This document shows, one piece after another, positions 25,581 to 51,763 of a stretch of DNA of 64,000 nucleotides. Under the pieces are notes generated by a model. It searched no databases and was not told where the DNA came from. It saw nothing but the letters and a program-made list of their open reading frames with translations. The stretch comes from Pseudomonadota bacterium (GTDB lineage Archaea; Thermoplasmatota; SW-10-69-26; JACQPN01; JAJPHT01). Location: NCBI GenBank assembly GCA_021325135.1, contig JAJPHT010000034.1, positions 1 to 64,000 of the forward strand. The letters run 5' to 3'. The position numbers were made by a program, and so were the translations under genes. The first letter of the stretch is position 1; each line of letters starts with the position of its first letter.

Positions 25581-25685
25581 GCCAAAGCGGGGGGTTCGGG
25601 GGGCGGCAGCCCCTGACGTTTCGGCCGTCTGCTTGACGTGATTTCACGTCAGGGGGCTGCGCCCCCCGAACCCCCCGCTTTTGGC
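25581..25685. repeat. Long intergenic inverted repeat (REP-like GGGGGCTGCGCCCCCCGAACCCCCCG arms)
   Basis: GCCAAAGCGGGGGGTTCGGGGGGCGGCAGCCCCTGACGT ... ACGTCAGGGGGCTGCGCCCCCCGAACCCCCCGCTTTTGGC. Confidence 0.8.
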
Positions 25686-37142: not shown

Positions 37143-38081
37143 ATGGCCCGGATCCTCGTCACCGACCCCCTCGACCCCGCCGCGGCGGACGCGCTGCGCA
37201 AGGCGGGCCACGAGGTCGAGGAGCGCAAGCTCACCCCCGAGGAGCTTCTCAAGGAGATCCCCAAGTACGACGCGCTCCTCGTGCGCAGCGAGACCAAGGT
37301 CACCAAGGCCGTGCTGGGCGTCGGCGACCGCCTCAAGGTCGTGGGCCGCGCGGGCGTCGGCGTCGACAACATCGACACGCAGGCCGCCAAGGAGCGCGGC
37401 ATCGCCGTCGTGAACGCGCCCCTGGCCGCCACCAACGCCGTCGCGGAGCTGACCCTCGCGCACATGCTCAGCCTCGCGCGCCAACTCCCCCGCGCCGACG
37501 CCGGCACGCGCGCCGGCAAGTGGGAGAAGAAGGGGCTCATGGGCATCGAATTGTCGGGCCGCACGCTGGGCCTCCTGGGCGTCGGCCGCATCGGAGGCCG
37601 CGTCGCGGAGCTTGCCCGCGCCTTCGGCATGCGCGTCGTCGTCTACGACCCCTACGTCAGCGCCGAGAAGGCGCGCGAGATGCACGTCGCCAAGGCCGAC
37701 ACGCCCGCCGAGGTCGTCGCCCAGAGCGACTTCGTCAGCGTCCACACGCCCCTCACCCCCGAGACCAAGGGCATGGTCAACGCCGCGCTGCTGTCGAAGT
37801 TCAAGAAGGGCAGCCACCTCCTCAACGTCGCCCGCGGCGGCATCGTCGACGAGAAGGCGCTCCACGAGGCCGTGAAGTCCGGCCACCTCGCCGGCGCCGC
37901 GCTGGACACCTTCGAGACGGAGCCCCTCAAGGAGACGCCCCTCGCGGAGCTTCCCTCGGTCCACTTCACGCCGCACCTCGGGGCCAGCACCGTCGAGGCG
38001 CAGGTCAAGGCGGGCCTCATGGTCGCCGAGGACGTGCGCAAGGTCCTCGCGGGGGAGAAGCCCGAGTTCCGGGTGGTGTGA
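37143..38081 (+). CDS. serA: D-3-phosphoglycerate dehydrogenase (short form without ACT)
   Basis: LLVRS.TKVT, GRAGVGVDNID, VAEL, GVGRIG, NVARGG, TPHLGAST.EAQ. Confidence 0.8.
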   Translation: MARILVTDPLDPAAADALRKAGHEVEERKLTPEELLKEIPKYDALLVRSETKVTKAVLGVGDRLKVVGRAGVGVDNIDTQAAKERGIAVVNAPLAATNAVAELTLAHMLSLARQLPRADAGTRAGKWEKKGLMGIELSGRTLGLLGVGRIGGRVAELARAFGMRVVVYDPYVSAEKAREMHVAKADTPAEVVAQSDFVSVHTPLTPETKGMVNAALLSKFKKGSHLLNVARGGIVDEKALHEAVKSGHLAGAALDTFETEPLKETPLAELPSVHFTPHLGASTVEAQVKAGLMVAEDVRKVLAGEKPEFRVV

Positions 38082-38144
38082 GCGCCAGATTCACCAAACG
38101 TTCATACACCCCTCCCGGCTTCGCCGCCCCCGAGGAATCACCGC

Positions 38145-38222
38145 ATGGGCCTCTTCGACAGACCCCTGGGTGCAAGTGGAGCGCCTGGAGCCGTTTTCTC
38201 GGGACTTCCAGCGGATTTCTAG
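38145..38222 (+). pseudogene. Displaced 5' remnant of terB (left junction of the island)
   Basis: ATG GGC CTC TTC GAC AGA CCC CTG GGT (MGLFDRPLG) matches terB start MGIFDKVLG; stops after 25 codons; host-type promoter CAAACGTTCATA and GAGG upstream. Confidence 0.65.
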
Positions 38223-38538
38223 GCGCGGGACCTGACCAGGACCTTGTCAGCAAGAGCTTGGGGGTCTTCGACTATTCTGGACCACAAACATCATCTCTGC
38301 ACGAACTTGGCATCCCGTACTTCTTATCGCTTCCAACGGCACGGCTGCCCTCGGAATTGGCATCCAGCCGGGAGGTGTGCACCGCCCTCGTCGGCGGCGG
38401 GACTCACAGGGCGGGCTCGTCAACAACACATGAGGGCGTCTCGGGTTTCCCCAAGGCATGCTCGTGCCCCTCCCCGCGCCTGAGCGACCATCATAGGGCC
38501 CCGTCTTGGCTTGAAAATCTCGAAAGCTTATTCACTCC

Positions 38539-40479
38539 ATGGAAGAGCTTATGGTTGGAAAAGTTGGCACGATGAGTCCATCCCAGGCGATCCGAGGCCA
38601 CGCTGCATTCCTAAAGCGGAATGGTGGCATGCTGGCCGACCTCCTTGAGGTGGCACTCCCGCCCCTGGTGCGTCCTGGGCGCAACTTCCTCACCGAGCTC
38701 ACCATCCTTGCCGCGACGTACCAAGTCAGCCCTTTGATCCATCGCAAGACACGGACAGTCCTTGTGCGACTCACACGCAAGTACCTCCCTCATGAGCGTG
38801 CGCGTTGGAGCCGCCGCGACTGGGCGGTCGCCCTCCAAGGCCTTCCGGGCGTCCGACGCGGCGCTGGCTCGCGGCTCGCGCGGATGCACAAGATCCTATC
38901 CAGGCGCCATGACTTTCCCACCTTAACTTCGATGAAGGTCTGGGGCGTGCCCAAGTGGCGTGCATTCTTCGCCGAGCTGGGCTGGGACACGAACCTCGCC
39001 TACGCTGTGACCGCCCTCCTCCTTGATCGCGAGCAGATGCCAGGTGGCCCCAACGTTCTCCATCTCTATCGAAGGCTTGGCTTCCGACTCGACCCGCATG
39101 GAAACGCTGCCGAGCACTCCCTCTTACCACGCGATCTCGAGCGCGCCAAGTGGCGGCTGCAACAGCTCGCCGTGGTGCGGTGCACGCCGCGGCTGCGCCC
39201 TGGGCCACGCACCTGTGGCGACTGTCCGCTGAAGCGCATGTGCCTCGCACACCGCGAAGCTACCGCTCAAGATAGGAACAATCGACCAGGCTATGTCGAC
39301 ATCTTCGCCGGTGGAGGTGGACTAAGCCTCGGGCTGACGCGAGCGGGCTTGGGCCTCAAGCTCGCGATAGAGAAGGAGCGGCACGCTGCCGATACACTCT
39401 ACCTTAATCATCCCGAGGCGCCTAACCGCGTCGTTGACGCACGTGATATCAGGCGCATCCTTTCCGACAAGAAGGCACTGCTGCCACTCAAGGGTACGCC
39501 CGTCGTAGCCGGCGGACCACCCTGCCAGCCGTTCTCGATGGCCCGTCGCCACAGCAAGGCCGACCAAAACGACCCGCGTAGATTCCTCTTCCGCGCGTTC
39601 GTCCGCGCCGTGGCCATCATTGAGCCCAAGATTGTCATCATGGAAAACGTCCCCGGCATCCAGAACGCAGCAGGAGGCAAGTTCAACGAAAGGATTGTCC
39701 AGGCGTTCGTTCGGATCGGCTATCATATGGACGCAGTTCTCCTGAACGCCGCTGACTACGGGGTCGCGCAAAATAGGCATCGCGTCTTCTTCATCGGTGT
39801 GCGAAAGGCGGCGTTCCGCTCGCCTGAGCGAATGCTCGAACGCATCTTTAACCGCATCAGACGCGCCCGATCGCGCCAGATATGGAGAGCAGGGGATGCG
39901 CTTCATGGCCTCCCGCGCTTTCGCGCTGGAGAAGGTGGAAACGTCGTCCTCACCGATAGCGTCGGCCGCATATCCCGATACGCAGAGAGATTGGCCGATG
40001 AGAAGTCTGGACTCGTGTTCAACCACGAGACGCGCCCACACAATCCACACGACATTAAGATTTACCGGATGCTTCGCCACGGCGAGACCGCGGCTAGCCT
40101 CGAGGAACGCCACCCCGGGATCATCCCCTATCAGGTCGAATCGTTTGGCGACAAGTACCGGAAAATCCACCCGGAACGTCCGGCTCCGACGATCCCTGCC
40201 CACCTCCACCGGGACTCAAACAGCTTCGTCCACTTCGATCTGCCGCGCGGCATCACGCCACGCGAAGCGGCCCGGTTCCAGTCCTTCCCTGATTCCTACG
40301 TGTTCCTTGGGGGCTTTGGACCCGCCTTCATTCAGATTGGGAATGCCGTTCCGCCGAAGCTCGGCGAGGTCGTCGGCCGTGCTGTCCTCGACGCGCTCGG
40401 ACAGCCTCGACGACTCGCGCGACACGCTGGGCCGCGCGCCCGGCCGACGCATCAACCTCATGCTCCCACAGCTCAATGA
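38539..40479 (+). CDS. C5-cytosine DNA methyltransferase (DrmMII-like) fused to a degenerate EndoIII/HhH-GPD domain with Fe-S motif
   Basis: DIFAGGGG, GGPPCQPFS, MENV, QNRHR, TPREAARFQSFPD, QIGNAVPP; N-domain ends C-x10-CGDCPLKRMC. Confidence 0.88.
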   Translation: MEELMVGKVGTMSPSQAIRGHAAFLKRNGGMLADLLEVALPPLVRPGRNFLTELTILAATYQVSPLIHRKTRTVLVRLTRKYLPHERARWSRRDWAVALQGLPGVRRGAGSRLARMHKILSRRHDFPTLTSMKVWGVPKWRAFFAELGWDTNLAYAVTALLLDREQMPGGPNVLHLYRRLGFRLDPHGNAAEHSLLPRDLERAKWRLQQLAVVRCTPRLRPGPRTCGDCPLKRMCLAHREATAQDRNNRPGYVDIFAGGGGLSLGLTRAGLGLKLAIEKERHAADTLYLNHPEAPNRVVDARDIRRILSDKKALLPLKGTPVVAGGPPCQPFSMARRHSKADQNDPRRFLFRAFVRAVAIIEPKIVIMENVPGIQNAAGGKFNERIVQAFVRIGYHMDAVLLNAADYGVAQNRHRVFFIGVRKAAFRSPERMLERIFNRIRRARSRQIWRAGDALHGLPRFRAGEGGNVVLTDSVGRISRYAERLADEKSGLVFNHETRPHNPHDIKIYRMLRHGETAASLEERHPGIIPYQVESFGDKYRKIHPERPAPTIPAHLHRDSNSFVHFDLPRGITPREAARFQSFPDSYVFLGGFGPAFIQIGNAVPPKLGEVVGRAVLDALGQPRRLARHAGPRARPTHQPHAPTAQ

Positions 40480-40804
40480 TACGCCAGCCTTGGGCCTCCA
40501 ACTGCTCACGTACTCGGGCGTCTCGTGCCTTGTTCGCGGCAAGTTTCGCTCGCCAAAAAGCAGCTCGATTCTTTGGTGGTATATAGTGGCTTGGGCAGCC
40601 ATGCCAGAAGCAGCCGTGCACGAATACGGCAATCTTGAGTCCGGGAAAGAAGACATCGGGGCTTCCAGGAATGCCGCGGCCGTGGACTCGGAATCGAAGC
40701 CCTGCGGCGTAGAGTGCCCGACGCAAGGCCATCTCTGGTGACGTGTTGCGCGCACGAATGCGGCTCATCACCCCGGACCGGGCTGCTTTCGAGATGTCAC
40801 TCAC
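40328..40804 (-). CDS. vsr: Very short patch repair endonuclease
   Basis: D....RS..MSRIR.RNT.PE, PG.PD, FVHGCFWHGC, FW..K...N..RD, WEHE; GTG start 40804 (track ORF is over-extended). Confidence 0.92.
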   Translation of the reverse strand: MSDISKAARSGVMSRIRARNTSPEMALRRALYAAGLRFRVHGRGIPGSPDVFFPGLKIAVFVHGCFWHGCPSHYIPPKNRAAFWRAKLAANKARDARVREQLEAQGWRIIELWEHEVDASAGRAAQRVARVVEAVRARRGQHGRRPRRASAERHSQSE

Positions 40805-40906
40805 AGACTCCGTAGATTCAGCCTTGCCATATGAGACAAGCGCGAAACGCGGGGACTGGATGTAGGATCGGCTTCGCCTGAATACTGCTGGCAGCCGAAC
40901 AGGTTC

Positions 40907-42541
40907 ATGATGAACCGAGAACTTGCAGGGAGCGTGTCCGAACGCAGGCAGGTGATCCGAGTCTTCATCGGCTCGCCAAGCGACCTCAACGACGAACGTG
41001 CAATCATCCCCCACGTAGTCGACGAGGTAAACCGCATAAAAGCTCACAGTATAGGATACCACTTCGAGGCGGTGGGCTGGGAAGACACGCTACCTGGCCG
41101 GGGGCGGCCTCAGGATAGGATCAACAAGGATCTCGACACCGCTCAACTGGCGGTTATGATACTCTGGCGGCGTTGGGGGAGCCCGACAGGAACGCACTCT
41201 AGCGGATTCCTAGAGGAGTTCGAGCACTGTCACCAACGGAAGACGCCACTCTTGTTATACTTTAAGCGTATTCCCGCAGAAGCGTTGGCGGATCCGGGAC
41301 CGCAACTCAGGGCCGTACTGGAATTCCAAGAACGGGTTATGCGCGAAAAAACAGTGTTGTTCTCTACTTTCGACACGCCGGCGGCCTTTGAGATTCAATT
41401 GCGACAGCATCTTTCGAAGTGGCTTGATGAGCACGACGCAGGCATCGTCCCCGAGGAAATGTTGATTCGCCCAGGAGCGTGGCTCCGGGCGCTTGCCCGT
41501 GATGAGGAACAGAGCCGTAGACTGATCGCGCGAGTTATGGCCACGGCGGAACAGCACGAGCGTGTCGCAGATATTTTAGCGAATGAAGGGGACTGGCGCC
41601 TTGTCGCTGGTGCGACACAAAGAGCCGAGTACCTATACAAGACCGCGCTCGAACTCTATCCAAGCATCGAGGCGATGCAGGGATATCAACATCTATTAAT
41701 CAAGACCGGTAGATCTGATGAAATCAAACCATTGCAGAGCGCCCTGCGCGCGATTGCAGACGAAGATCAGAACATCCGTGCAGAGATCTTTGCACTCGAA
41801 GGTGAAGGAAACGTCGCTCAGTACCAAGGCGACCTCGTGACAGCCAAACGGTGTTTCGAGCGCACGGCCAAACTGGCAGGGGACATGGAGCTCTTCGATA
41901 CTGCGTGTACTGCGCTGACACATCTTGGTGAAATTGCTCGGATGCAAGGCGAATTTGGCCTCGCGCTGCGACGCCTCAATGAAGCAATTGAGATTGGAAA
42001 AGCCGAGGACCCTCGGCATCGGGTAGCGGCTATGAGCCATAGGATCAACCTCTTGATCCAAGCTGGGCGCTACGATCTAGCGCGAAAGCCGGCTGAGGAG
42101 GCCTTGGATGAATCCACGAGGCATAACATCGTCCATGACATGTCTGTAGCGAAGATGTGCATTGCGCTCATCGACAGCCACGACGGCAGAACTTCCGAAG
42201 CAACGCGTGGGATGACGCAGGCGTTGGAACTAGCGCGCCGCTCGGGGGAAACCGGCCTCGAATACACGATCCTCCACAACCTTGGCGTAGTCCACTTATC
42301 CGCTGAAGAGTTTCCCGAAGCCGAGCGGATCTTCAAGGACGCCCTGAAGCTCGCAAAGGAGCGCGGTGGACTCGAAGGCATTTCCGACATTTCGTTCAAC
42401 CTTGGCCAGTGTGCCATGATCACAGGGAAGGATGCCGAAGCTCGGGAGCATTTCCACCGAGCCTTGCATGGGTATCAGCAACTTGGAGATCCGCGTCGCA
42501 TCAAGCTCGCTTCCGATGTGCTCTCGAGCCTCGGTGACTGA
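40907..42541 (+). CDS. DUF4062 (TIR/NDT-like) domain + TPR repeat protein
   Basis: RVFIGSPSDL..ER, GWE..PG.GRPQD.IN, LWRRWGSPT...SG..EEFE; C-terminal TPRs (HNLG.V.L...EA...F..AL). Confidence 0.85.
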   Translation: MMNRELAGSVSERRQVIRVFIGSPSDLNDERAIIPHVVDEVNRIKAHSIGYHFEAVGWEDTLPGRGRPQDRINKDLDTAQLAVMILWRRWGSPTGTHSSGFLEEFEHCHQRKTPLLLYFKRIPAEALADPGPQLRAVLEFQERVMREKTVLFSTFDTPAAFEIQLRQHLSKWLDEHDAGIVPEEMLIRPGAWLRALARDEEQSRRLIARVMATAEQHERVADILANEGDWRLVAGATQRAEYLYKTALELYPSIEAMQGYQHLLIKTGRSDEIKPLQSALRAIADEDQNIRAEIFALEGEGNVAQYQGDLVTAKRCFERTAKLAGDMELFDTACTALTHLGEIARMQGEFGLALRRLNEAIEIGKAEDPRHRVAAMSHRINLLIQAGRYDLARKPAEEALDESTRHNIVHDMSVAKMCIALIDSHDGRTSEATRGMTQALELARRSGETGLEYTILHNLGVVHLSAEEFPEAERIFKDALKLAKERGGLEGISDISFNLGQCAMITGKDAEAREHFHRALHGYQQLGDPRRIKLASDVLSSLGD

Positions 42542-42603
42542 CCACGCCCTGAGTGCAATGGTTAGGCGCCTCGGGGGCGCTGGAGTCGCTGGGCGTACGA
42601 CGC

Positions 42604-43839
42604 TCAAGACCAGAATCCCTTGTGCTTGATGCCATCGCCGTGCAAGTATCTTCGGTCGAGGTGGCTATTGTAATGCGCGCAACTTGTCTCGGAGAGATGG
42701 ATGCAAGCGTAGCACGCGGCCTCGGTGGCGTGCATGCAGACAGGATCTTGGATGCAGTCCATCGTGCCAAGCTCCATGCGTTCGAAGAACTCGGAGAGCC
42801 CCTTGTCGAAAAGCGCATCGAGGCCCCCAAGAGATTGCTGGTAGTTCTTATTCACGGTGATTGCGAACGCAAGCGCTCCAACATTGATGTGTTCCTTGAG
42901 ACTGTTCGCCGCGAAACCGCTGCGTGCGGATGCGGCTTGGACACCAGCATGGCTGAGCGAGTGGAGTAGTGTGAACGTGTTGTGCCCCACGGGATTCAGT
43001 TCGCGCTGGCGGCGGTCCCTGTCGCAGTCCCCGAGGCCATTGGCGTGCTTCCGCGCGCGGCATCCTGCTTGGAATCCGTGCCGCAAATCGGAGTTCCACT
43101 GGCGCGTGGGCCAATTGCGGTCGAGCCATGTCGCCACGCGCTCAGGGTCGACAACGAAGACGAGCGCCTCCGTGCTGAACGTTTCTGCATAGACAGTGTA
43201 GCGGCCGGTCTCGCGGTCCGGTTCATGCAAACGTACGCGGGCGCTCCGGAGCGCGTCCATATCCGGTGCGCGGCGATACCCGGCGTGGACAAGTGCCATG
43301 GGAAACCGATCCACTTGAAGCACGTCCAAGAAGCCGAGCCGCCGCGCCGTCTGAAACTGGTCCACAAGATCCTCGCGCTTGCTAAGGTACTTCACGCTCG
43401 AACCACTCTGCATTTCCTTAAGCTCAAGGAAGTCGAATGCCGTCCCCCGCATCGCTGCGAGGTCGCCGTCGAAGAGCGCCTCGATGATATGTGGATCCAA
43501 CCCCTCAGTTCGGTCATCGAGGTTCTGCACCAAACGCGTCGCGTCAGCCTTGTCAAGATGGTACTTCGATTCGATGTGGTCGATGAGAATGTCATTGCGG
43601 AGGATTGCGTCGCTCACATGGCTCCACTTAACAGCCTTTGCACGAATCTCTTCGATCATGGAGCGGGGGAAGCGCGCAACGGTGACGTCACCGAGTCCGC
43701 CGACGCGTGCGAGGTGCTGCTGCGGGTTCGTGCTGATCTCATGAAACTCGCTCGTCTGATGCGTGAGGTTCACAAACTGCGCAATGACGCCTGAATATGC
43801 GCTGCTCTTGTTGTGCACGACAATGGCCATCTCGCTCAT
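42604..43839 (-). CDS. DUF1998 protein (C-terminal half of DISARM DrmB-like protein)
   Basis: TLLHSLSHA, SLKE.I, LGGL, C.QDPVC...ACYAC..LSETSC..YN..LDR. Confidence 0.85.
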   Translation of the reverse strand: MSEMAIVVHNKSSAYSGVIAQFVNLTHQTSEFHEISTNPQQHLARVGGLGDVTVARFPRSMIEEIRAKAVKWSHVSDAILRNDILIDHIESKYHLDKADATRLVQNLDDRTEGLDPHIIEALFDGDLAAMRGTAFDFLELKEMQSGSSVKYLSKREDLVDQFQTARRLGFLDVLQVDRFPMALVHAGYRRAPDMDALRSARVRLHEPDRETGRYTVYAETFSTEALVFVVDPERVATWLDRNWPTRQWNSDLRHGFQAGCRARKHANGLGDCDRDRRQRELNPVGHNTFTLLHSLSHAGVQAASARSGFAANSLKEHINVGALAFAITVNKNYQQSLGGLDALFDKGLSEFFERMELGTMDCIQDPVCMHATEAACYACIHLSETSCAHYNSHLDRRYLHGDGIKHKGFWS

Positions 43840-46800
43840 GCACGGTCCCCCTTAGCCGCCGCGGGGTTGCAGCGCAAACATCGCGCAGTTACATTCCTTG
43901 TCCAAGAACAACCAGGCACGCGGCACCACCACCTCCAGCTCGACGTGGATTGGGGGCGGTCGTTGAGTTGTATCCATGCTGACCCGTGCTCTGGGCATCC
44001 CGGGACGTAGAGGCTCTGCGCTTCGCCACACTCATCGTGAACGGCCATGTGGCGCACTTGCTGGCCTGGACCATGCGCGGGATCGCGCGGACACCGCAAG
44101 GATCTCATCGTGCGAGAGTTGGCAAGCCAGACCTGCTGGCAGGAGCGGAACCGACACCTGAAAGTCAGGGGGAAGAGCGCAGCCTTGATGCGTCCGGGCC
44201 GAACAGGCTCGAGGTTGTTGGCGAGCTTGTCCGCGGCATCCTTCGCGTAGACGATTCCCATGAGTTCTGGCGCACCGCGGAGCAGGGGCAGAAGCCTGCT
44301 TGCCATGACGACGCGGTTGATGTTCTCGACGCCTCCAGGGTTGAACGCGCGGTCGACGTATTGAGTGCGCACGATCGCGCTGCCATTGCCGAATTCGTAT
44401 GTCTGGTCGGGTGCGTGGTTGTAGATGACCTGAATGCGGCTCCTCGTCATGGTGCGACCGCGTAGACGTGCATCATCCAACGTGGAACCTTTTTCCTCGC
44501 GCCCTTGGTAGGGCATGATTTCGATGCCCTCGTCAACATCACGAAGCGAAGTCATTGGAGAGCTGTCGAGGGCGCCGGGCGTTCCCCCGGCAGGACTCTC
44601 ACGCACGGCACGCGCAACTAGGTTGAGGTTGATCTCGATGGCCTCTTCGACAGCTGCGCGGAAGGCAGGACTTGCATCGGGATCGCTCACCATGTACATC
44701 TCGCGGAGGCGTGCCTCGAACCACTCGCGGGCCCGGTTCACGAGCTCCTTGGCCTGGAGAAGAAACCAGCCAGGATTCGAGTCGCCCTGTCGGTCCTCCT
44801 CCGTGCTGAAGATGAGGCTCATGATGGCGCCGCCAATCGTGCGCCGCGGTGTCTTGGTCGAGAAGCGGTTGATGGCCACCTCCTCGACAAGGAGGTCTTG
44901 GTTGTGGTGGTACGTGTGGAAGTGTAAGTAGTGGACGAGATCGCGTTGCCGGACGGGATGGAACAGGCGGAAAACAAGGCCCGTAAATCGGCGGCCCGTG
45001 CGACTTGTGACTTGGATGTCCTCACTCGTGCGTCGGGGTTGCCCCATGAGCACCATGTTGTTGATATTCTTGATATCGACCCCGTATGCAATGCTCGATG
45101 ATGCCGGAACGACGTCATAATCTTGGTCGGCCTGTGGGTCGGGCCGGTCGAGCAGAGTGAGTAGGTCCGCGAGCGTGTGGCTCTCCATCTTGCTGCTAAT
45201 CGTATCGCTCGCGCGCAGAGGCTCATATCCTCCGCCGAGCATATACTGGCTGAGCTGAAAGTCGATTGAGTGTCGGACGCCATCTCCTTGCCGAAGCGCG
45301 AGCACGTAAGTGATCGTTCGGCGGTACGGGAGAAGTATCTCGGCCTTTTCCGCGGGTGACGCCACAGCGTGTCCAACTACCGTCTCGAGTGGGATGCGTC
45401 CGTCGTCAAGCTCCTGCAGGATGGAATGGAGGATACGTAGCGTGTGGATGAGAGCGTCATTCTCCGTCTTTCCATGCGGGTGTATACCAACGAAGAAACG
45501 CTGAACGTCCTCGGTCTTGACTTGGAAGTAGAATCCGGAAAGCTCCGTCGGTGGTGAACTCGGGAAGCGTCGCATCCGGTCCTTGCGGACGCCTGTGAGA
45601 TGCCGCACGTGCTGCTCCCATCCTGCTACCGTTGCGGACGCGAGTACGTAGTAGGGCGCGGGGTCGCCACCGAGGAGGGAAACTTTCTGCAGTATCGACT
45701 CGTAGTGCCCGGAGAACGCGCCAAGCTCCTCTTCAAGAAGGTGCACCTCATCGATGACGACGAGTCCTGGCGCCCAATCGTAGGGGGCTGTGAACTTCTC
45801 ACATAGGAGCTGGCAGCGCGCAGGGGATTCGTGAGTACAACGACCCCGGTTGCGCTTGCTGAAATCCGGACGTACAAACCCGTGCTGGGGGCAGCGCCAT
45901 GGGGGAGTGCGAAGGAGTGTATGGACCTTCCGCGTGAGTCCCACCCCCGTAATCTTGTCGATGGTGCCGACCAGGAAGGCCGGCGGATTTCGTCGGATGT
46001 TGTCATCAATGACATCCATGGGCATGCGTCCCGCCTTGCAGCCCTCCGTGCGGCAGTGGAACGTGATATTCCACTCGTGCTCGCTCCATTCAGATCGGAT
46101 GCTGACTTGTCGACAAAGCGGGCACTTCGCGACGAAGACGAATGCGCGCGGCTCCATAGCAATCTTCCGCGCAATGGCGATGTTCGTGTTCTCGCGTTGT
46201 TCGTCGTCTTCGAGGCCTGGCTCTGGCGGCTTGACTTCGGTGGGCGTGTACGCGCCACCAACGAGGAATCCCACCCGGAACTCGGGCCCTGGAACCTTGC
46301 GCTCCTTGCGGATCTGATCAGCGTGATAGACGAGATGGACCAAGCGCTCGGTCTGCTGAACGGTAAGCGCGCGTAGGGCGAAACGGAACCATGCGGTCAC
46401 GCCGCCCTTCTTTCCGCGTAGGCGGTCGTAGAACGCATTGAAGACGGCGAGCGCCTGGAACGCCTCCGTCTTGCCACCGCCCGTCCTAAACCAAATAAGG
46501 TCGGCGCGCGGCTCGTATGAGGCCGCTTGGCCTCCTGCGGTGCGCGTGTATCGCGCGCGCTCGACGACGCGGGGGAGTGCACTCAGGATGAACCCGAGCT
46601 GGAATGCGCGCCATTCAGGCCGGACGCCCATTGATTTGGTCATCAGGCACGACATGGCTTCCATGGTGTACCGGAACGCCTCCTGTACACGGCGGGACTC
46701 AGTATCAGTCCCCCGAAGGATTTCTACCGCGCGTGCAATGTCAGCGACCTCCTTTTCGAAGGCGTCCATGTCTTCTCGAGCGCGCCCATACGCCTCGGGG

Positions 46801-48035
46801 TTGCGCCGCTGGTCGAATCGGCCAAGCATAGCGTCCCACGATGGGCGCGTCTCCCGCAGGGCGTCGAGGAACTTCTGAGCGCTTGCGGCGGGATCGCGCG
46901 CGAGCTCTTCCACATTCGTCCCGGGTCGCCTCGCTTGGTCGATGGGTGCTTGTCCATGGACGGGTACATGGCGTGTGACGACAACGCTGGGACGCCCTGC
47001 TAGCTCCTCCGCGACACAGGCGAGGCCGGCGGCGAGGGGGCGCAACTGTGGACGGCGTGGATCGCCGCTCTTGAAATGCCCTGCCTCCCACGGTTGGACG
47101 GGGGCACCGGCCGTTTCGACTTCGAGCGTGGCGTTGAAGAGCGTGCCCTCGTGGAGCTTCGCCCGGTCTCGGGGAAAGGACGTCAGATTCACGAAACGGA
47201 GGTCAAGGATGGTACCCCTGCCCCCGGGTGCGGAGCGCGTGCTCACCGAGAGTTCTGCCTTCCACCAAGGCATGAAGCGGAGGCCGCCTAGGCGGTCGAG
47301 CCACACCTGCCGCTCTGCGGCTTCCTCTGGAACAAGGCGCCTACCTGAGTTTGACCGATAGCAATCTGGCCTCTCGCTGAACGTTTGTGCGATAAGGGCG
47401 AGCGCATCGTTGATGCGTCGCGTGAAGACGGCAGCATCCTCTTCTGCTTGGTTGAGACGCAGCTCCCCGCTCTCATCCACTGTGCCCGCATGGACGAAGC
47501 GCGTTGGTATGTCACGGAGCTCGAGGTCCTTCCCTCCATACGGCTCAAGCTGCTTTGCGGTGGGCATAGCGCGGGCCCAGACGTGGAAACGGACGTGAAC
47601 GCCAAGCGTACCCTCCATGCTCGCGAGACGAAAGCGAAGTCCGCAGCTTGGCGGCGAAACGCGCCGCTCGCCCATGAGGAGGGCGCCGCTGTCGACGTCG
47701 TCTTGGTAGGGTTCGCGTGCCTCTGCGATGGGCGGGTTAAACTCAAGCGCCGTCCCAGTGCGTTCTCCGAGGGAATCGCCTTCGGCCTCTGTCAAGGCAA
47801 CGTTGGCCTTGTCCGGCGGAAGCTCTGTTTCGGTCTCAGGGTCGGTCATCCTATGCGCGAGCGTCCCAACGAAGAAGCGCGTGTGGGGCTTGTTGTCAAG
47901 GATTTCAGTCTCGCCCTCTCCAAGTGCGCGACGGATCCACTCGGTGGCCAGGAATTGTGCGAGGCGCTCGTCGCTGTTCTTGGCCGCGCGTGCTAGGGTC
48001 GCGTTGGAGTCGGTGATGATCTTGGTGGAGGTCAC
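43836..48035 (-). CDS. DrmA-like SF2 helicase fused to a DrmB-like N-terminal Zn-binding region
   Basis: WRAFQ, TGGGKTEA, LRALT.QQ, GTIDK, DEVHLL, ASAT, GVD, Q..SR.GR, MTSLRDV; then TRS..Q..Y..AP, FP..F.C...C, H..CG, CP.HG, W.C...C. Confidence 0.85.
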   Translation of the reverse strand: MTSTKIITDSNATLARAAKNSDERLAQFLATEWIRRALGEGETEILDNKPHTRFFVGTLAHRMTDPETETELPPDKANVALTEAEGDSLGERTGTALEFNPPIAEAREPYQDDVDSGALLMGERRVSPPSCGLRFRLASMEGTLGVHVRFHVWARAMPTAKQLEPYGGKDLELRDIPTRFVHAGTVDESGELRLNQAEEDAAVFTRRINDALALIAQTFSERPDCYRSNSGRRLVPEEAAERQVWLDRLGGLRFMPWWKAELSVSTRSAPGGRGTILDLRFVNLTSFPRDRAKLHEGTLFNATLEVETAGAPVQPWEAGHFKSGDPRRPQLRPLAAGLACVAEELAGRPSVVVTRHVPVHGQAPIDQARRPGTNVEELARDPAASAQKFLDALRETRPSWDAMLGRFDQRRNPEAYGRAREDMDAFEKEVADIARAVEILRGTDTESRRVQEAFRYTMEAMSCLMTKSMGVRPEWRAFQLGFILSALPRVVERARYTRTAGGQAASYEPRADLIWFRTGGGKTEAFQALAVFNAFYDRLRGKKGGVTAWFRFALRALTVQQTERLVHLVYHADQIRKERKVPGPEFRVGFLVGGAYTPTEVKPPEPGLEDDEQRENTNIAIARKIAMEPRAFVFVAKCPLCRQVSIRSEWSEHEWNITFHCRTEGCKAGRMPMDVIDDNIRRNPPAFLVGTIDKITGVGLTRKVHTLLRTPPWRCPQHGFVRPDFSKRNRGRCTHESPARCQLLCEKFTAPYDWAPGLVVIDEVHLLEEELGAFSGHYESILQKVSLLGGDPAPYYVLASATVAGWEQHVRHLTGVRKDRMRRFPSSPPTELSGFYFQVKTEDVQRFFVGIHPHGKTENDALIHTLRILHSILQELDDGRIPLETVVGHAVASPAEKAEILLPYRRTITYVLALRQGDGVRHSIDFQLSQYMLGGGYEPLRASDTISSKMESHTLADLLTLLDRPDPQADQDYDVVPASSSIAYGVDIKNINNMVLMGQPRRTSEDIQVTSRTGRRFTGLVFRLFHPVRQRDLVHYLHFHTYHHNQDLLVEEVAINRFSTKTPRRTIGGAIMSLIFSTEEDRQGDSNPGWFLLQAKELVNRAREWFEARLREMYMVSDPDASPAFRAAVEEAIEINLNLVARAVRESPAGGTPGALDSSPMTSLRDVDEGIEIMPYQGREEKGSTLDDARLRGRTMTRSRIQVIYNHAPDQTYEFGNGSAIVRTQYVDRAFNPGGVENINRVVMASRLLPLLRGAPELMGIVYAKDAADKLANNLEPVRPGRIKAALFPLTFRCRFRSCQQVWLANSRTMRSLRCPRDPAHGPGQQVRHMAVHDECGEAQSLYVPGCPEHGSAWIQLNDRPQSTSSWRWWCRVPGCSWTRNVTARCLRCNPAAAKGDRA

Positions 48036-50317
48036 TGAAACACGTCCTGGTTGCCGGGATGGAGGCCGAGGAACGCGGCGGGGAGCGTGAGGGGCCCTCG
48101 GATGCCTCGTACACGTATGGGGAAGAAATGGCGGCGCAGGGCGGAGATGTCAATGTTGTGGATATCTTTCGCCTGCTTGACGAGGTCGTCGTCGACCTCT
48201 AAATAGGTGGCCTTGCCAAGGTCGTTGGCCCATCGGCCGGCGGCACGGTGGACGCCGCGGAGACGTGTGATGGCAGCAACGTGTGCGTCGACTCGCTCCT
48301 GGCTGGATGCCTCGCCGGCCGCCTCGAGCGCGGCCTTAACGAGCGATTCCTCTTGGTAGAGCACGGCCCACGTCCGGTCGTTCAGGAAGATGTCGCGAGC
48401 CTGCGCGGGTTCGATCTTGACGCCTTTGCGGAGGAGCTCCAAGCAGATGCGCTTCGCGGACCAGCCTTCTTTCGCGATGAGCTTCTGAATCGGCTCCTTC
48501 CACGACTCCGCGAGGTCGCGGATGCCGCGGTTGCGCGGCATGCTCTCCCAGACCCGGAAGGCGGCAGACTGCAGATCCTCGTCGAGACTCGAGTTGGAAA
48601 GAACGGCAACGACAGCGCCGTCTTCATTAATGATCGAGCGTGCCTCGTCGATGCTGATGCGACGCGTTCCGCCGTCCTTGATGACGGTGAGTTTGCTAGT
48701 CGGGAAGATACGGAACACGCGTCCGTCGTGGAGATCGAGCTCGACCATAGGCGTGTCCGCGCTGGGATCGAGCATCCCATCGCCGGCCGCGTAGGCGATG
48801 CTTCGGCGCAGTTCCTTGTCTCCCGCGGCCGCCAAGAGGACAGCAGCGTCGAGAAGGTTTCCGAGACTCTCCTCGGGCCTCCCAGCCGATGGCAAGGTCT
48901 GCCCGGGGGGCGGCGTCATGATGCGACGGAGCGGCTGAAGCCCGGGCCCTCCTTGGATGCCCTGCCGTTCGAGGGCGCGCTCCGTGCGCGCGGCCTCCTC
49001 CGGTGTGAGGAGGAAGCGGACGTCCCCTCCGAGCTCAATCGTGGGGACCCACTCACGGCCGTGTGGCATAGGCGCGACGAGGATGAGGGGCCGCGCCTCC
49101 GGTGCCCAAGTCACGGGATCGGTCCACGCAGTGACGTCCGCGGCGATGCCTTCCTGCGCAAGGACCTCGCGGAGGGCGCGGGCCGAGGACCGGTCGGCCA
49201 CAACCACGCGGGCCGAGCCCGCCTTCCGGATGATGTCCAAGAGAAAATCTCGTTTGGGCGAGCGCGCATCGAGGGCGGCCGCGAGGTCGGCCAGCCCCTG
49301 CGTGACATGGGGCATCAGGCTCGAACCCACGAGATGCCGCACGTTGGCGACGCGCTCGTAATGCGCGAGGATCTCCATGCTATCGTGGATCGGGTGGACA
49401 CGCTCACGATCCTGTCCCCGGTACACGGGATCGAGCTCGCTAGGATGCACGGGGGCTGCAAGAAGCGCGTTGTACGTTGCAAGCGCTTCGTCGAAGAAGC
49501 GCTTCACGAGCATATCGGTGACACCCTTCAGCGCCATGATGTCGGCGAGGAGACTGCGTGTATCTAGTTCGACGCGGTGGGCCTGCAGCTTCATCTTGAT
49601 CTTCGGCGGCGTGACGAGGAGCGGAATTGTGCCGACGCCTCCGTGGAGCGGCTTGCGGTCGTCAGGGATCGTGCCGAGCTCGGGAAAACTGGCCACGCGA
49701 AGCTTCGTGCTGGGTGCGAGCAGCACGTAGGTTGAGGCCGGCGCAGGTTCGCGCTCGGCCATCGTCAGGCTGCGGTCGGGCTTGCGCGTGCGGCCGTCGA
49801 AGAGGACCATCACGACAGGCACGCCGTGATTCTCAAGCGTGCGGATGTCCTCAGCATCGAAGCGCGCTGCGATGACAAGACGAAAACGGTCGAGCGAGAC
49901 ACCTTGGCGGACGAACGCCTCGCGGCTGAGGCTGTTGTTCCGAATGTGGCCAATTGCAAAGATGTCGTCGATCCGTGACTCCTGCGCATGATATCGAATA
50001 GCTAGGTCGCGCGCAATCACGGGGAGGCGTTCGTCCTGCGTTACGAGAACGACGACGCCACGCAGCTTCTCCTCGAGGATTTGATACGCGGCCGCGAGGC
50101 CTGCAAGCAGGGGGGTCGGTGCTGATGGGCTGGGCAGGGCTAGCGTCGCGTACTGCGCGCGGCGCAGGGCCTTCGGCGCGTTGCGGACGAGCTCGGCCAC
50201 AGCGCGAATGGTTGCGAGGTTCGCCCCGTCGCAGTTGACAATGCGCGCCCCTTCGTCGGTGTACTTGATCAGGGCGCGCTTCTGGAGGCAGTCGACGATC
50301 CAGTTGATGCGGGGCAC
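48032..50317 (-). CDS. DrmE-like protein (helicase-like fold, no Walker motifs seen)
   Basis: 761 aa, GTGA-coupled to the helicase, SD GAGGTGG; size and position match DrmE of DISARM class II; family assignment is inference. Confidence 0.55.
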   Translation of the reverse strand: MPRINWIVDCLQKRALIKYTDEGARIVNCDGANLATIRAVAELVRNAPKALRRAQYATLALPSPSAPTPLLAGLAAAYQILEEKLRGVVVLVTQDERLPVIARDLAIRYHAQESRIDDIFAIGHIRNNSLSREAFVRQGVSLDRFRLVIAARFDAEDIRTLENHGVPVVMVLFDGRTRKPDRSLTMAEREPAPASTYVLLAPSTKLRVASFPELGTIPDDRKPLHGGVGTIPLLVTPPKIKMKLQAHRVELDTRSLLADIMALKGVTDMLVKRFFDEALATYNALLAAPVHPSELDPVYRGQDRERVHPIHDSMEILAHYERVANVRHLVGSSLMPHVTQGLADLAAALDARSPKRDFLLDIIRKAGSARVVVADRSSARALREVLAQEGIAADVTAWTDPVTWAPEARPLILVAPMPHGREWVPTIELGGDVRFLLTPEEAARTERALERQGIQGGPGLQPLRRIMTPPPGQTLPSAGRPEESLGNLLDAAVLLAAAGDKELRRSIAYAAGDGMLDPSADTPMVELDLHDGRVFRIFPTSKLTVIKDGGTRRISIDEARSIINEDGAVVAVLSNSSLDEDLQSAAFRVWESMPRNRGIRDLAESWKEPIQKLIAKEGWSAKRICLELLRKGVKIEPAQARDIFLNDRTWAVLYQEESLVKAALEAAGEASSQERVDAHVAAITRLRGVHRAAGRWANDLGKATYLEVDDDLVKQAKDIHNIDISALRRHFFPIRVRGIRGPLTLPAAFLGLHPGNQDVFQ

Positions 50318-50326
50318 TGTGCCACC

Positions 50327-50536
50327 TCAGGAGGCGGCGTTGTTACGGAAGAGCGTCCACAGCGGCTGCGTGACGACCGCGTGCGCGTCGGAGCCGGGGA
50401 CCCGATAGCGCGCGATGATGGTCGTGATGGCCGTGGCCTTGTCAGGGCAAGCGGCGATGATCATGATGATCTCGTCGAGCGGGGCCTTGCGGCCGCACCC
50501 GAAGGTGATGTCGTTGGGCTTGTTCGGCGTTCTCAT
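50327..50536 (-). CDS. 69-aa protein resembling the GyrA/ParC C-gate subdomain
   Basis: LDEIIMIIAACPDKATAITTIIARYRVPGSDAHAVVTQPLWTL; GGAG upstream; its TGA overlaps the SD of the next gene. Confidence 0.5.
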   Translation of the reverse strand: MRTPNKPNDITFGCGRKAPLDEIIMIIAACPDKATAITTIIARYRVPGSDAHAVVTQPLWTLFRNNAAS

Positions 50537-50839
50537 GGGGATCTCGCTCCCGGTATCATCCACTCCGGGTCGGGACCCCGTGGGGCCAGGCCGTAGGCAC
50601 TCCGCGCCGGTGGGGAAGAGTGAGGACCCGCTAGCAACTGTCAGCGAATAACCTTGCCGGTCTGGTCGGACGGCGTGATGGGCCTGCTTGCTTGAGACGG
50701 GGGTGCTGCCGGTCGCGCCTTGGCCCGGCCTGGGCAGACTTAACCCGCGCGGAGCCTTCGCTTGGTGCCCCGCACCCGCGCGTTGCATCTTGGAATCTGC
50801 GACAGCGCACTCAAACCCGACTGTGCTCCATGGGTTCCC

Positions 50840-51229
50840 ATGCCCGCCCCACGCCGCCACCCGCCCAATCGCCTCCCGCCGGAGCGCTACCTCTATGCGA
50901 GCTGGCCGCCGGCCCCCAGCATCCCGCGGGGTCTTGTGATGGGTTGCCCAGAAAGCCAGTTCCCGGCCCAGTTGGCCCGCTTCGAGATGATGTACGGCCC
51001 CGCCCAGCGCAAATGGCGCGAACCCGATCCCCCGGCACCTCCTTCGCCGTCGCCCCCCACGTCCTCTCGGCCCGCGGAGGCGTCGGCCTCCTTGCCTCTG
51101 GTCCAGTCCCCCAAGCCGCCGAGGAGGAAGCCCGCCAAGAATAAGGGGGCGCCATCCAAGACAAAGAAAAGGACATCCTCCAGTGGGCGCAAGAGCCGCA
51201 AAGGAAGCAAAGGGGGACGAAAGCGCTAA
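50840..51229 (+). CDS. Hypothetical Pro-rich protein with very basic Lys/Ser tail
   Basis: ORF ending KPAKNKGAPSKTKKRTSSSGRKSRKGSKGGRKR; coding status uncertain. Confidence 0.3.
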   Translation: MPAPRRHPPNRLPPERYLYASWPPAPSIPRGLVMGCPESQFPAQLARFEMMYGPAQRKWREPDPPAPPSPSPPTSSRPAEASASLPLVQSPKPPRRKPAKNKGAPSKTKKRTSSSGRKSRKGSKGGRKR

Positions 51230-51325
51230 ACAGGGGGTGAGGATTCGCGGCCCCAGAATGGATCGCTGACCCTCCCAAGATGCGGTTGGCTCCCGGTGGA
51301 AAACCGGTTAGGATACGGTGAATGT

Positions 51326-51763
51326 ATGGGAATTTTCGACAAGGTTCTGGGCAGCTCCACCGACAAGCTCACCGAGGCCGAGGGCTTCGCCGGCATCGCG
51401 CTGTGCGCCATCGCCGCGGACGGCGTCATCACCGAGGAGGAGGCCGCGGGCCTCGCCACCACGCTGGGCCGGATGAAGCTCTACGCCAGCATGAGCAACC
51501 GCGACATCAACAAGATCTTCGAGAAGCTCATCAAGGTCGCGCGCAGCGACGGGCTGGGCAAGGTCATGGAGATGAGCAGCGCGGCCGTGACGCCCGGCCT
51601 CAAGCCCACGGCCTTCGCGATGGCGGCGGACCTCATCATGGCCGACGGCGAGGTCGCGGCCCAGGAGAAGACGTTCCTGGAGCGCATCCAGAAGAGCCTT
51701 GGCGTGGCCGACCCCGACGCGCTCAAGATCGTCGAGGTCATCGCCATCAAGAATCGCGGATGA
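51326..51763 (+). CDS. terB: Tellurite resistance TerB family protein
   Basis: AIAADG.I.EEE, AF.MAAD..MADG.V...E..FL......LGV; SD GGTGA at 51317. Confidence 0.88.
   Translation: MGIFDKVLGSSTDKLTEAEGFAGIALCAIAADGVITEEEAAGLATTLGRMKLYASMSNRDINKIFEKLIKVARSDGLGKVMEMSSAAVTPGLKPTAFAMAADLIMADGEVAAQEKTFLERIQKSLGVADPDALKIVEVIAIKNRG

What the first reader, a model, noticed from the sequence alone, without database searches (positions are those of the whole stretch)
38095..51360. Island appears to have integrated into the first codons of terB and rebuilt the gene start
Seen: left end ATGGGCCTC-TTCGACA-GACCCCTGGG (38145; MGLFDRPLG, stop after 25 codons) behind a host-type promoter. Right end ATGGGAATT-TTCGACA-AGGTTCTGGG (51326; MGIFDKVLG) with AT-richer first codons and its own SD GGTGA. 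The 7-bp core is in the same codon register, and these points match the composition shift. Inference: attL/attR-like junctions of an element that targets terB and supplies a new promoter and N-terminus. No integrase or tRNA is in the island, so it is mobilised in trans or has decayed.
Basis: partly seen in the sequence, partly recalled or inferred. Interest (0 to 1): 0.72.

Follow-up and report, generated by a model that had tools for sequence, protein, structure and literature searches.

The report
Defence island inserted in terB start
A 13.2-kb piece of foreign DNA carrying a DISARM anti-virus system sits inside the first six codons of a conserved archaeal gene (terB) and brings its own start codon and first codons so the gene stays whole; bacteria have mobile islands that do this, but here no enzyme that could have made the insertion is present.

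Summary
The 63 nt after the serA-like stop, plus ATGGGCCTC-TTCGACA (38145-38160), match the terB upstream region and start of sister species. Homology stops exactly after the 7-bp core. At 51326 a foreign upstream region and ATGGGAATT precede the same core, and from there on terB is host-type (GC3 0.95, 94-97% identical to the nearest species). The 13,181 bp between the cores have 54-66% GC (host about 72%). They carry a class-2-like DISARM system (DrmMII, Vsr, DrmB, DrmA, DrmE-like) and a DUF4062-TPR gene.

Two empty sites exist: species G003 (serA, 53 bp, terB) and a contig from a relative in the source sample. Independent metagenomes confirm both junctions.

The island has no integrase, transposase, tRNA, terminal inverted repeats or second copy. 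No relative of the element could be recovered with its flanks.

The most likely origin is Campbell-type recombination of a circle whose attP mimicked the terB start (19/26). The recombinase is lost or acted in trans. This is the archaeal, integrase-less counterpart of SXT/prfC and dusA islands: a new member of a known kind. The scan had already noted integrase-less gene-end duplications elsewhere in this genome.

The parts
37143..38081 (+). Host serA-like D-2-hydroxyacid dehydrogenase (left flank)
   Evidence: Pfam 2-Hacid_dh_C E=3.6e-62. GC3 0.98. 76-91% identical orthologues in G001-G004.
38082..38144 (+). Ancestral terB promoter and 5'UTR, now orphaned (TATA-like TTCATACA, conserved CCGGCTTCGCCGCC motif, GAGGA Shine-Dalgarno-like motif)
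   Evidence: Aligns with the terB upstream regions of G003/G004/G001 at 70-74% identity, far above shuffles.
38145..38222 (+). Remnant ORF of 25 codons. Nt 1-16 are the ancestral terB start (ATGGGCCTC + core); the rest is island DNA.
   Evidence: ATGGGCCTCTTCGACA is identical to the terB start of G001 and G003.
38154..38160 (+). Left copy of the 7-bp core TTCGACA (crossover interval)
   Evidence: Homology to relatives ends after 38160.
38161..51334 (.). Inserted foreign island, 13,181 bp core to core
   Evidence: GC 0.54-0.66 and GC3 0.62-0.79. Absent from G003 and from a contig of a co-occurring relative. Not found by DNA or DrmE-like protein search in 400 genomes of the phylum.
38228..38248 (-). 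Inverted 21-nt copy (18/21) of terB nt 13-33, starting inside the core sequence. Significance doubtful.
   Evidence: (I4). Two equally good chance matches exist elsewhere in the island.
38539..40479 (+). DrmMII-type C5 cytosine methyltransferase with a 250-aa N-terminal extension
   Evidence: Pfam DNA_methylase E=8.5e-56. PADLOC MTase_II/DrmMII E up to 5.8e-86.
40328..41062 (-). Vsr-type mismatch endonuclease (true start probably further in)
   Evidence: Pfam Vsr E=2.8e-26.
40907..42541 (+). DUF4062-TPR protein (PDC-S60-like)
   Evidence: Pfam DUF4062 and TPR. PADLOC PDC-S60 E=3e-24.
42604..43839 (-). DrmB, C-terminal part
   Evidence: NCBIfam DrmB_fam E=2.7e-27, profile positions 327-601.
43836..48035 (-). 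DrmA helicase with a DrmB-N-like tail
   Evidence: NCBIfam DISARM_DrmAS E=1.8e-90. PADLOC DrmA E=1e-86. Residues 1273-1390 hit DrmB positions 75-194.
48032..50317 (-). DrmE-like protein, a rare family
   Evidence: Weak NCBIfam DrmE hit, E=3.6e-4. Only two relatives (64% and 43% identity) in 5.8 billion proteins.
50327..50860 (-). Small leader ORF of the drm operon (true length uncertain)
   Evidence: ORF list. No family hit.
50861..51325 (+). Non-coding right arm of the island. It holds BRE/TATA-like boxes (GAAAACCGGTTAGGATA at about 51298-51314; CGCTAAACAG at about 51224-51233) and GGTGA 4 nt before the ATG.
   Evidence: Sequence. No homology to terB upstream regions of relatives. Promoter function is inferred only.
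51326..51334 (+). Island-borne start codon and codons 2-3 (ATG GGA ATT)
   Evidence: 6/9 identity to relatives; GGA and ATT do not end in G/C, unlike host codons.
51335..51341 (+). Right copy of the core TTCGACA
51326..51763 (+). Rebuilt terB (145 aa), host-type from nt 10 onwards
   Evidence: Pfam TerB. 90% aa identity to G002. GC3 0.95.

Best explanation
A circular foreign element integrated by a single reciprocal (Campbell-type) crossover within the 7-bp sequence TTCGACA, which forms codons 4 to 6 of chromosomal terB. It carried a DISARM-type restriction-modification/helicase defence system and a DUF4062-TPR gene. Its attachment site can be read from the two island ends as ATGGGAATT-TTCGACA-GACCCCTGGG. 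This mimicked the terB start ATGGGCCTC-TTCGACA-AGGTCCTGGG. After integration the island's right end therefore supplies an upstream region, a Shine-Dalgarno-like GGTGA, an ATG and two codons in frame with the rest of terB. The original terB promoter, 5'UTR and first 16 nt are left at the far side, now facing the island's methyltransferase gene. A 7-bp identical overlap flanked by partly matching arms is what tyrosine-recombinase att sites look like, so a site-specific recombinase most likely made the crossover. That enzyme is not in the island. It was either lost from the element or supplied in trans, so the island now sits as a fixed, att-flanked, integrase-less defence island. Shown here: the insertion, its exact borders, the rebuilt reading frame, the foreign origin and the empty sites. 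Inferred: the circular intermediate, the recombinase, and promoter activity of the island end.
For: Breakpoints map to the 7-bp core on both sides. The orphaned left copy is homologous to terB upstream regions plus start in three sister species. Empty sites exist in G003 (serA, 53 bp, terB) and in a 713-nt contig of the source run. That contig joins 38130 to 51335 through GAGGAATCAGCAGATGGGCCTC (tables 5c and 8). Both junctions are confirmed outside the MAG: a 15.8-kb Logan contig spans both, a contig from a mine metagenome of another study spans the left junction at 100% identity, and another spans the right junction at 93%. Similarity of the island ends to the target beyond the core is 6/9 to the left, with ATG in frame, and 5-6/10 to the right, with CTGGG in register. 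My estimate of getting both by chance is about 2e-3. This argues for homology-guided recombination rather than a target-site duplication. The island has no terminal inverted repeats. Composition is foreign, and the nearest DrmA-like clusters are bacterial. [quoted passage not shown] Archaeal att sites can be as short as 8 bp (PMC6563490). The rebuilt N-terminus MGIFDKVLG equals a natural variant in G012.
Against: There is no integrase, excisionase or pseudogene of one in the island or its 377-nt and 465-790-nt non-coding ends. The three tyrosine and two serine recombinase genes of the genome lie on other contigs. No attP- or attB-like second site exists in the genome. Only one occupied site is known, and no relative of the element was recovered with its flanks, so target specificity is unproven. 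The exact core is only 7 bp. The start ATGGG..T.TTCGACA (MG[LIFV]FD) is shared by unrelated genes of this clade, so an element could carry one for other reasons.
Confidence: 0.55

Rival explanations
1. Short-homology (illegitimate or host RecA/RadA-type) recombination without any dedicated integrase. A foreign circle happened to carry a gene start of the widespread MG[LI]FDK type. It recombined once with the terB start through the 16-nt patch (13/16 identical, 7 exact), and selection for phage defence kept the rare event.
For: Unrelated genes of this class (FtsY-like, YHS-domain and JAB-domain proteins) start with ATGGG..T.TTCGACA. An unrelated metagenomic gene starts ATGGGAATTTTCGACA...CTGGG. 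No integrase was found anywhere near. Only one insertion is known.
Against: In the reconstructed circle the MGIFD reading frame stops after 25 codons, so it is not the start of a real gene. The island's other end also resembles the target (CTGGG in register). Seven exact bases is very little for homologous recombination.
Confidence: 0.2
2. Secondary spread: the primary insertion happened in another lineage. This genome received the island together with flanking host-like DNA by homologous recombination within the serA-terB neighbourhood, a variable spot.
For: A mine-metagenome contig 93% identical over 51249-51678 carries the island's right end next to a diverged terB. All its listed differences lie 74 nt or more into terB, which hints at a mosaic (tables 3 and 8; the table is truncated). 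The serA-terB interval exists in three or four states among sister species: adjacent in G003; a gene for a secreted protein of about 1,100 aa in between in G001 and G004; rearranged in G002.
Against: It does not explain how the junctions arose, only how they moved. terB from nt 10 on and the left flank are of this lineage's own type.
Confidence: 0.1
3. Guided, integrase-independent insertion. The island belongs to the same unexplained system as the tiny gene-end-duplicating elements noted elsewhere in this genome. The inverted copy of terB nt 13-33 at 38228-38248 would serve as an address for an unknown enzyme.
For: The inverted copy is 18/21, or 16/17 against the ancestral-type sequence, and begins inside the core. 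I confirmed one integrase-less duplication of a gene end, at the argF 3' end: a 34-nt exact repeat with a recoded gene end plus a two-hairpin stretch, 105 nt in all, between the copies.
Against: Two equally good matches to the terB start occur by chance elsewhere in the island, so p is about 0.02-0.1. The argF element has no such mirror copy. The segment does not fold better than shuffles (z = +1.0). The island ends share no sequence with any other place in the genome.
Confidence: 0.07
4. Transposition with a 7-bp target-site duplication, or an ancestral island lost precisely in relatives, or an in-situ duplication of the terB start that later diverged.
For: TTCGACA flanks the insert as a direct repeat. 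A precise deletion between the repeats would recreate the relatives' sequence.
Against: There are no terminal inverted repeats, transposase or casposase. The in-frame ATGGG before the right core is unexplained by a target-site duplication. Foreign composition and absence of the island from all sampled relatives argue against ancestry. Three changes in 9 nt of the functional copy, with none in the dead copy, argue against in-situ divergence.
Confidence: 0.05

Closest known systems
[quoted passage not shown] IMEVchUSA3)
   Same: Insertion inside the first codons of a conserved chromosomal gene. The element end supplies a new upstream region, start codon and slightly altered N-terminus, so the reading frame is restored. 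The old start is left at the other junction. A short core is shared by attL and attR (10.1101/2021.06.18.448947; PMC4344509).
   Different: Those elements are bacterial and encode their own tyrosine integrase and directionality factor. They are found repeatedly at the same site, and excision and promoter activity were shown by experiment. Here the host is an archaeon, no recombinase is present, only one insertion is known, the replaced stretch is only 9 nt, and nothing has been tested functionally.
CIMEs and other att-flanked, integrase-less genomic islands (remnants or in-trans-mobilised elements)
   Same: Bounded by att-like direct repeats, carries cargo only, and lacks recombination and transfer genes.
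   Different: For CIMEs a related autonomous element with the same att site is known. No such partner, and no second att-like site, was found in this genome or in the collections searched. This comparison rests on my own knowledge of the CIME literature.
Integrated mobile elements of archaea (Thaumarchaeota survey, PMC6563490)
   Same: Short att sites (8-26 bp). Integration into protein-coding genes verified by comparison with empty sites in relatives. Many 'cryptic integrated elements'.
   Different: All 14 protein-gene insertions reported there are in 3'-distal regions. Here the 5' end is hit and a start is rebuilt, and there is no integrase.
Class 2 DISARM (DrmA, DrmB, DrmC, DrmE, DrmMII)
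   Same: DrmA, DrmB, a DrmE-like protein and a C5 methyltransferase of DrmMII type are present in one block.
   Different: No DrmC/PLD gene was found. DrmB is split, with its N-part fused to DrmA. Vsr and DUF4062-TPR genes are embedded. The DrmE-like protein matches only weakly (E=3.6e-4).

Membership tests
Site-specific integrative island (tyrosine-recombinase type) | Integrase gene within or next to the element | tested here: not met
   No PF00589 or PF00239 hit on contig C8. No hit for any island ORF or end-region ORF, even at E<=1.
Site-specific integrative island (tyrosine-recombinase type) | Direct att repeats at both borders that coincide with the limits of foreign DNA | tested here: met
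   7-bp exact core within a 26-nt stretch, 18-19/26 identical. Homology and composition switch at the cores.
Site-specific integrative island (tyrosine-recombinase type) | Empty target site in relatives | tested here: met
   G003:C96 has serA, 53 bp, then terB. A contig of source run X1 joins 38130 to 51335.
Site-specific integrative island (tyrosine-recombinase type) | Excised circular form or restored attB in the same strain | tested here: inconclusive
   Only assembled contigs could be laid, and these drop rare variants. No such joint was listed.
5'-end-targeting, gene-restoring elements (SXT/prfC, dusA islands) | Insertion in the 5' coding end with an element-borne in-frame start | tested here: met
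   ATG GGA ATT joins in frame to host terB from nt 10. The conserved N-terminus is kept.
5'-end-targeting, gene-restoring elements (SXT/prfC, dusA islands) | Element-borne promoter drives the target gene | not testable with these tools
   Only BRE/TATA-like and Shine-Dalgarno-like motifs can be read. No RNA run holds the locus.
5'-end-targeting, gene-restoring elements (SXT/prfC, dusA islands) | Recurrent occupation of the same site by related elements | tested here: not met
   The terB-type start occurs once per genome in all other genomes searched. No second occupied site in 21 genomes of the class or 400 of the phylum.
Transposon / casposon | Terminal inverted repeats and a transposase or casposase | tested here: not met
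   The best end-to-end alignment is at shuffle level. No such gene was found.
DISARM class 2 | DrmA, DrmB, DrmE, DrmMII and DrmC | tested here: inconclusive
   DrmA, DrmB and DrmMII are clear. DrmE is weak. DrmC was not found.
TerB domain protein | Pfam PF05099 above the gathering score | tested here: met
   27.2 bits against a cut-off of 24.4, residues 24-131. Orthologues in 11 genomes of the class.

The most novel reading that the evidence does not exclude
This archaeal lineage has an integrase-independent way of writing DNA into gene ends while supplying a spare gene end. That mechanism would produce both the roughly 100-nt hairpin elements seen elsewhere in the genome (argF case confirmed here) and this 13-kb defence island. 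The inverted copy of the target next to the island's left end would then act as the address.
Probability: 0.07. Interest if true: 0.85.

Novelty: new member of a known kind. Interest (0 to 1): 0.42.

Why it matters
This is a clean case, anchored by comparison with relatives, of an archaeal genomic island that lands inside the 5' codons of a conserved gene and repairs it. Published surveys of archaeal integrated elements that I could read report only 3'-distal insertions into protein genes. The case shows how a complete defence system, probably of bacterial ancestry, entered an uncultured soil archaeon without destroying the target gene. It also adds to a pattern of att-like footprints without a visible recombinase in this genome. 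If a trans-acting or unconventional recombination system lies behind that pattern, the exact attB and attP sequences defined here give a direct assay substrate.

Tried and rejected
(1) Excision or circle joints: no joint of the strain's own sequence across 38160/51342, or from 51334 back to 38161, was listed. Only contigs could be laid, so this says nothing either way.

The flanks of the only two DrmE-like relatives (P0002, P0003) could not be read.

(3) The search for related loci with the DrmE-like alignment A1 found nothing in metagenome, genome or viral contigs. tblastn against plasmids found no match.

(4) Pattern scans. The attP/attR pattern gave one unrelated gene in metagenome contigs (L048, MGIFDNLLGG) and nothing in viral contigs. 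The 19-mer of the left end gave 5 hits in genome contigs, where I expect about 4 by chance.

(5) Terminal inverted repeats or direct similarity between the island ends: at shuffle level.

(6) Hairpin at the left end: folding energy no better than shuffles.

(7) The inverted terB fragment at 38228-38248 as a 'mirror address': equally good chance matches exist at 42801-42812 and 45954-45976, and the argF mini-element has no counterpart. It is kept only as an unexplained detail.

(8) Island ends as members of a repeat family: BLAST against the whole genome gave only noise.

(9) An automatic search for flanking direct repeats at the 13 other low-GC islands of the genome gave nothing clearly above noise. 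The best was a 21-nt repeat with one mismatch on C20.

(10) Homology of the right-end upstream region to terB upstream regions, which would indicate a donor's terB promoter: none.

(11) A homology-facilitated illegitimate recombination model with a long terB anchor: rejected, because terB is host-type from nt 10.

Full report
WHAT IS THERE. The window comes from an uncultured soil archaeon (earlier scan notes) with about 72% GC. Between 38161 and 51334 the GC content drops to 0.54-0.66. GC3 of the genes drops to 0.62-0.79, against 0.98 for the left-flank serA-like dehydrogenase and 0.95 for terB on the right.

The low-GC block encodes, in order:
- a DrmMII-type C5 methyltransferase (38539-40479, +);
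- a Vsr endonuclease (within 40328-41062, -);
- a DUF4062-TPR protein (40907-42541, +);
- on the minus strand, an operon of a small leader ORF, a DrmE-like protein (48032-50317), DrmA with a DrmB-N-like tail (43836-48035) and the rest of DrmB (42604-43839).

This is a class-2-like DISARM system without DrmC. The window has a single tRNA, far away at 25591. No integrase, resolvase or transposase domain is found in any island ORF, nor in the ORFs of the two non-coding end regions, even at E<=1.

THE TWO JUNCTIONS. The left junction reads ATGGGCCTC-TTCGACA-GACCCCTGGG from 38145 and opens a 25-codon ORF. The right junction reads ATGGGAATT-TTCGACA-AGGTTCTGGG from 51326 and opens a 145-aa TerB-domain protein. 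A 7-bp repeat in 13 kb means nothing on its own, and the repeat finders do not rank it. The comparison with relatives gives it meaning.

terB orthologues were found in 11 genomes of the class, all starting MG[LI]FDK[VL]. The 63 nt before 38145 align with the regions upstream of terB in three sister species at 70-74% identity. They share a TATA-like box, a conserved CCGG.TT.GCCGCC motif and a GAGGA-type Shine-Dalgarno-like motif. Alignment scores are 16-18, while shuffles average 4-6 and never exceed 14. The 63 nt before 51326 score like noise.

Anchored on the ATG, the left copy is identical or nearly identical to relatives for nt 1-16 and random thereafter. The right copy is random before the ATG and 6/9 for nt 1-9. 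From nt 10 it is 7/7, 28/30, 57/60 and 94/100 identical to the closest species, G002. The crossover therefore lies within TTCGACA. The left copy is the original terB promoter, leader and start. The first 9 nt of today's terB come from the island. Three of the seven codons of terB that do not end in G or C are among its first seven.

EMPTY SITES AND INDEPENDENT CONFIRMATION. In sister species G003 the serA-like gene is followed after 53 bp by ATGGGCCTCTTCGACAAGG-terB. In the sequencing run that may be the source of the window's DNA, a 713-nt contig of a co-occurring relative joins position 38130 to 51335 through GAGGAATCAGCAGATGGGCCTC, again an empty site. This contig has depth about 5 and is about 87% identical over terB.

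G001 and G004 keep the same terB leader but have a gene for a secreted protein of about 1,100 aa between serA and terB. In G002, serA and terB lie 27 kb apart on opposite strands.

The junctions are not an assembly artefact. An independent 15.8-kb contig spans both. A contig from a mine metagenome of another study spans the left junction at 100% identity, and another spans the right junction at 93%.

HOW IT PROBABLY HAPPENED. Joining the island's two ends gives a putative attP, ATGGGAATT-TTCGACA-GACCCCTGGG. It matches the ancestral attB, ATGGGCCTC-TTCGACA-AGGTCCTGGG, at 19 of 26 positions. The match comprises an exact 7-bp centre, ATGGG and one T on one side, and CCTGGG on the other. I estimate about 2e-3 for getting the flank matches by chance.

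This layout, together with the in-frame start codon, is what a single reciprocal crossover between a circle and the chromosome leaves. It is not what a target-site duplication leaves, and the ends share no inverted repeat. A long homologous anchor in terB is excluded, because terB is host-type from nt 10.

The closest documented parallels are bacterial. [quoted passage not shown] Archaeal integrated elements can have att sites as short as 8 bp, but the protein-gene insertions catalogued in Thaumarchaeota are all 3'-distal (PMC6563490).

A side consequence, inferred only, concerns the promoters. The orphaned terB promoter now points into drmMII. In the circular form the island's right-end signals would have pointed into drmMII. 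Integration may therefore have swapped the two promoters.

WHAT IS MISSING. The enzyme is missing. The genome has three tyrosine-recombinase genes (contigs C10, C19, C26) and two resolvase-type genes (C33). None is on this contig. No other sequence within 5 mismatches of the attP or attB 26-mers resembles an att partner.

The island DNA and its DrmE-like protein were not found in 400 other genomes of the phylum. The DrmE-like protein has only two relatives in 5.8 billion proteins. Scans of metagenome, genome, viral and plasmid collections gave nothing useful. Target specificity and mobility therefore rest on a single insertion.

The start ATGGG..T.TTCGACA is also used by unrelated genes of this clade, including FtsY-like, YHS-domain and JAB-domain proteins. 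This keeps a recombinase-free, short-homology accident alive as a rival. Against that rival, the island's own MGIFD frame would stop after 25 codons in the circle, so it is not a gene start carried for another purpose.

LEADS FROM EARLIER NOTES. The scan had noted integrase-less duplications of gene ends elsewhere in this genome. I confirmed one, downstream of argF on contig C23. There a 34-nt exact repeat flanks 105 nt: a recoded gene end followed by a two-hairpin stretch. This shows that att-like footprints without a nearby recombinase recur in this organism, which modestly favours an enzyme acting in trans.

One note from another genome described a 'mirror-image copy of the target that stops at the insertion point'. 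The island does have an inverted 18/21 copy of terB nt 13-33 at 38228-38248, beginning inside the core. However, two equally good matches occur by chance elsewhere in the island. The argF element has no mirror copy. The segment does not fold unusually. I keep the inverted copy as an unexplained detail, not as evidence.

VERDICT. The reading 'island integrated into the first codons of terB and rebuilt the gene start' is correct. The reading 'attL/attR of an element that targets terB' is plausible but unproven. It is a new, archaeal and integrase-less member of a kind of event already known from bacterial integrative elements, carrying an atypical DISARM system.

Noticed in passing
L030-L037, L028 (G002, G005, G007, G013, G018-G020): Unrelated proteins of this archaeal class start with the same MG[LIFV]FDK peptide and nearly the same 16 nt. 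They include FtsY-like, YHS-domain and JAB/MPN-domain proteins, a membrane protein and TerB. This may be a shared N-terminal signal or a translation-initiation preference.
   Followed up: partly
window 38095-38130 and alignment A2: A motif CCGG(C/A)TT(C/G)GCCGCC between the TATA-like box and the Shine-Dalgarno-like motif is conserved upstream of terB across several genera. It could be an operator or leader element.
   Followed up: no
L022 14609-17999 (G004) and L023 (G001): Two sister species have a gene for a secreted protein of about 1,100 aa, of native composition, between serA and terB. G003 and this genome lack it, so the serA-terB interval is a variable spot.
   Followed up: partly
G002:C34:17560-18495 and 45731-46165 (L025, L021): In the closest species, serA is followed by an Lrp/AsnC-type gene. 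terB lies 27 kb away on the other strand with a different upstream region, which indicates a rearrangement with a breakpoint between the two genes.
   Followed up: partly
window 43836-48035 and 42604-43839: The C-terminus of DrmA (residues 1273-1390) matches the N-part of DrmB. The next ORF matches only the C-part of DrmB. DrmB is therefore split, with one half fused to the helicase.
   Followed up: partly
window 51249-51678, run X4: A mine-metagenome contig 93% identical carries the island's right end next to terB. All its listed differences lie 74 nt or more into terB, hinting at a mosaic made by homologous recombination. The table was truncated, so this is only a hint.
   Followed up: no
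G000:C23:44290-44460 (L055): The last 20 codons of argF recur 139 bp downstream. A 34-nt exact repeat flanks 105 nt: a recoded gene end followed by a two-hairpin stretch. No recombinase is nearby.
   Followed up: partly
G000:C20:8094 and 23372: A 21-nt direct repeat with one mismatch brackets another low-GC island of about 15 kb. It is a possible att pair.
   Followed up: no
window 50762-51229: An ORF at the island's right end finishes in a very lysine/arginine-rich tail just before the terB upstream region. It has no family hit, and its coding status is doubtful (GC2 0.65).
   Followed up: partly
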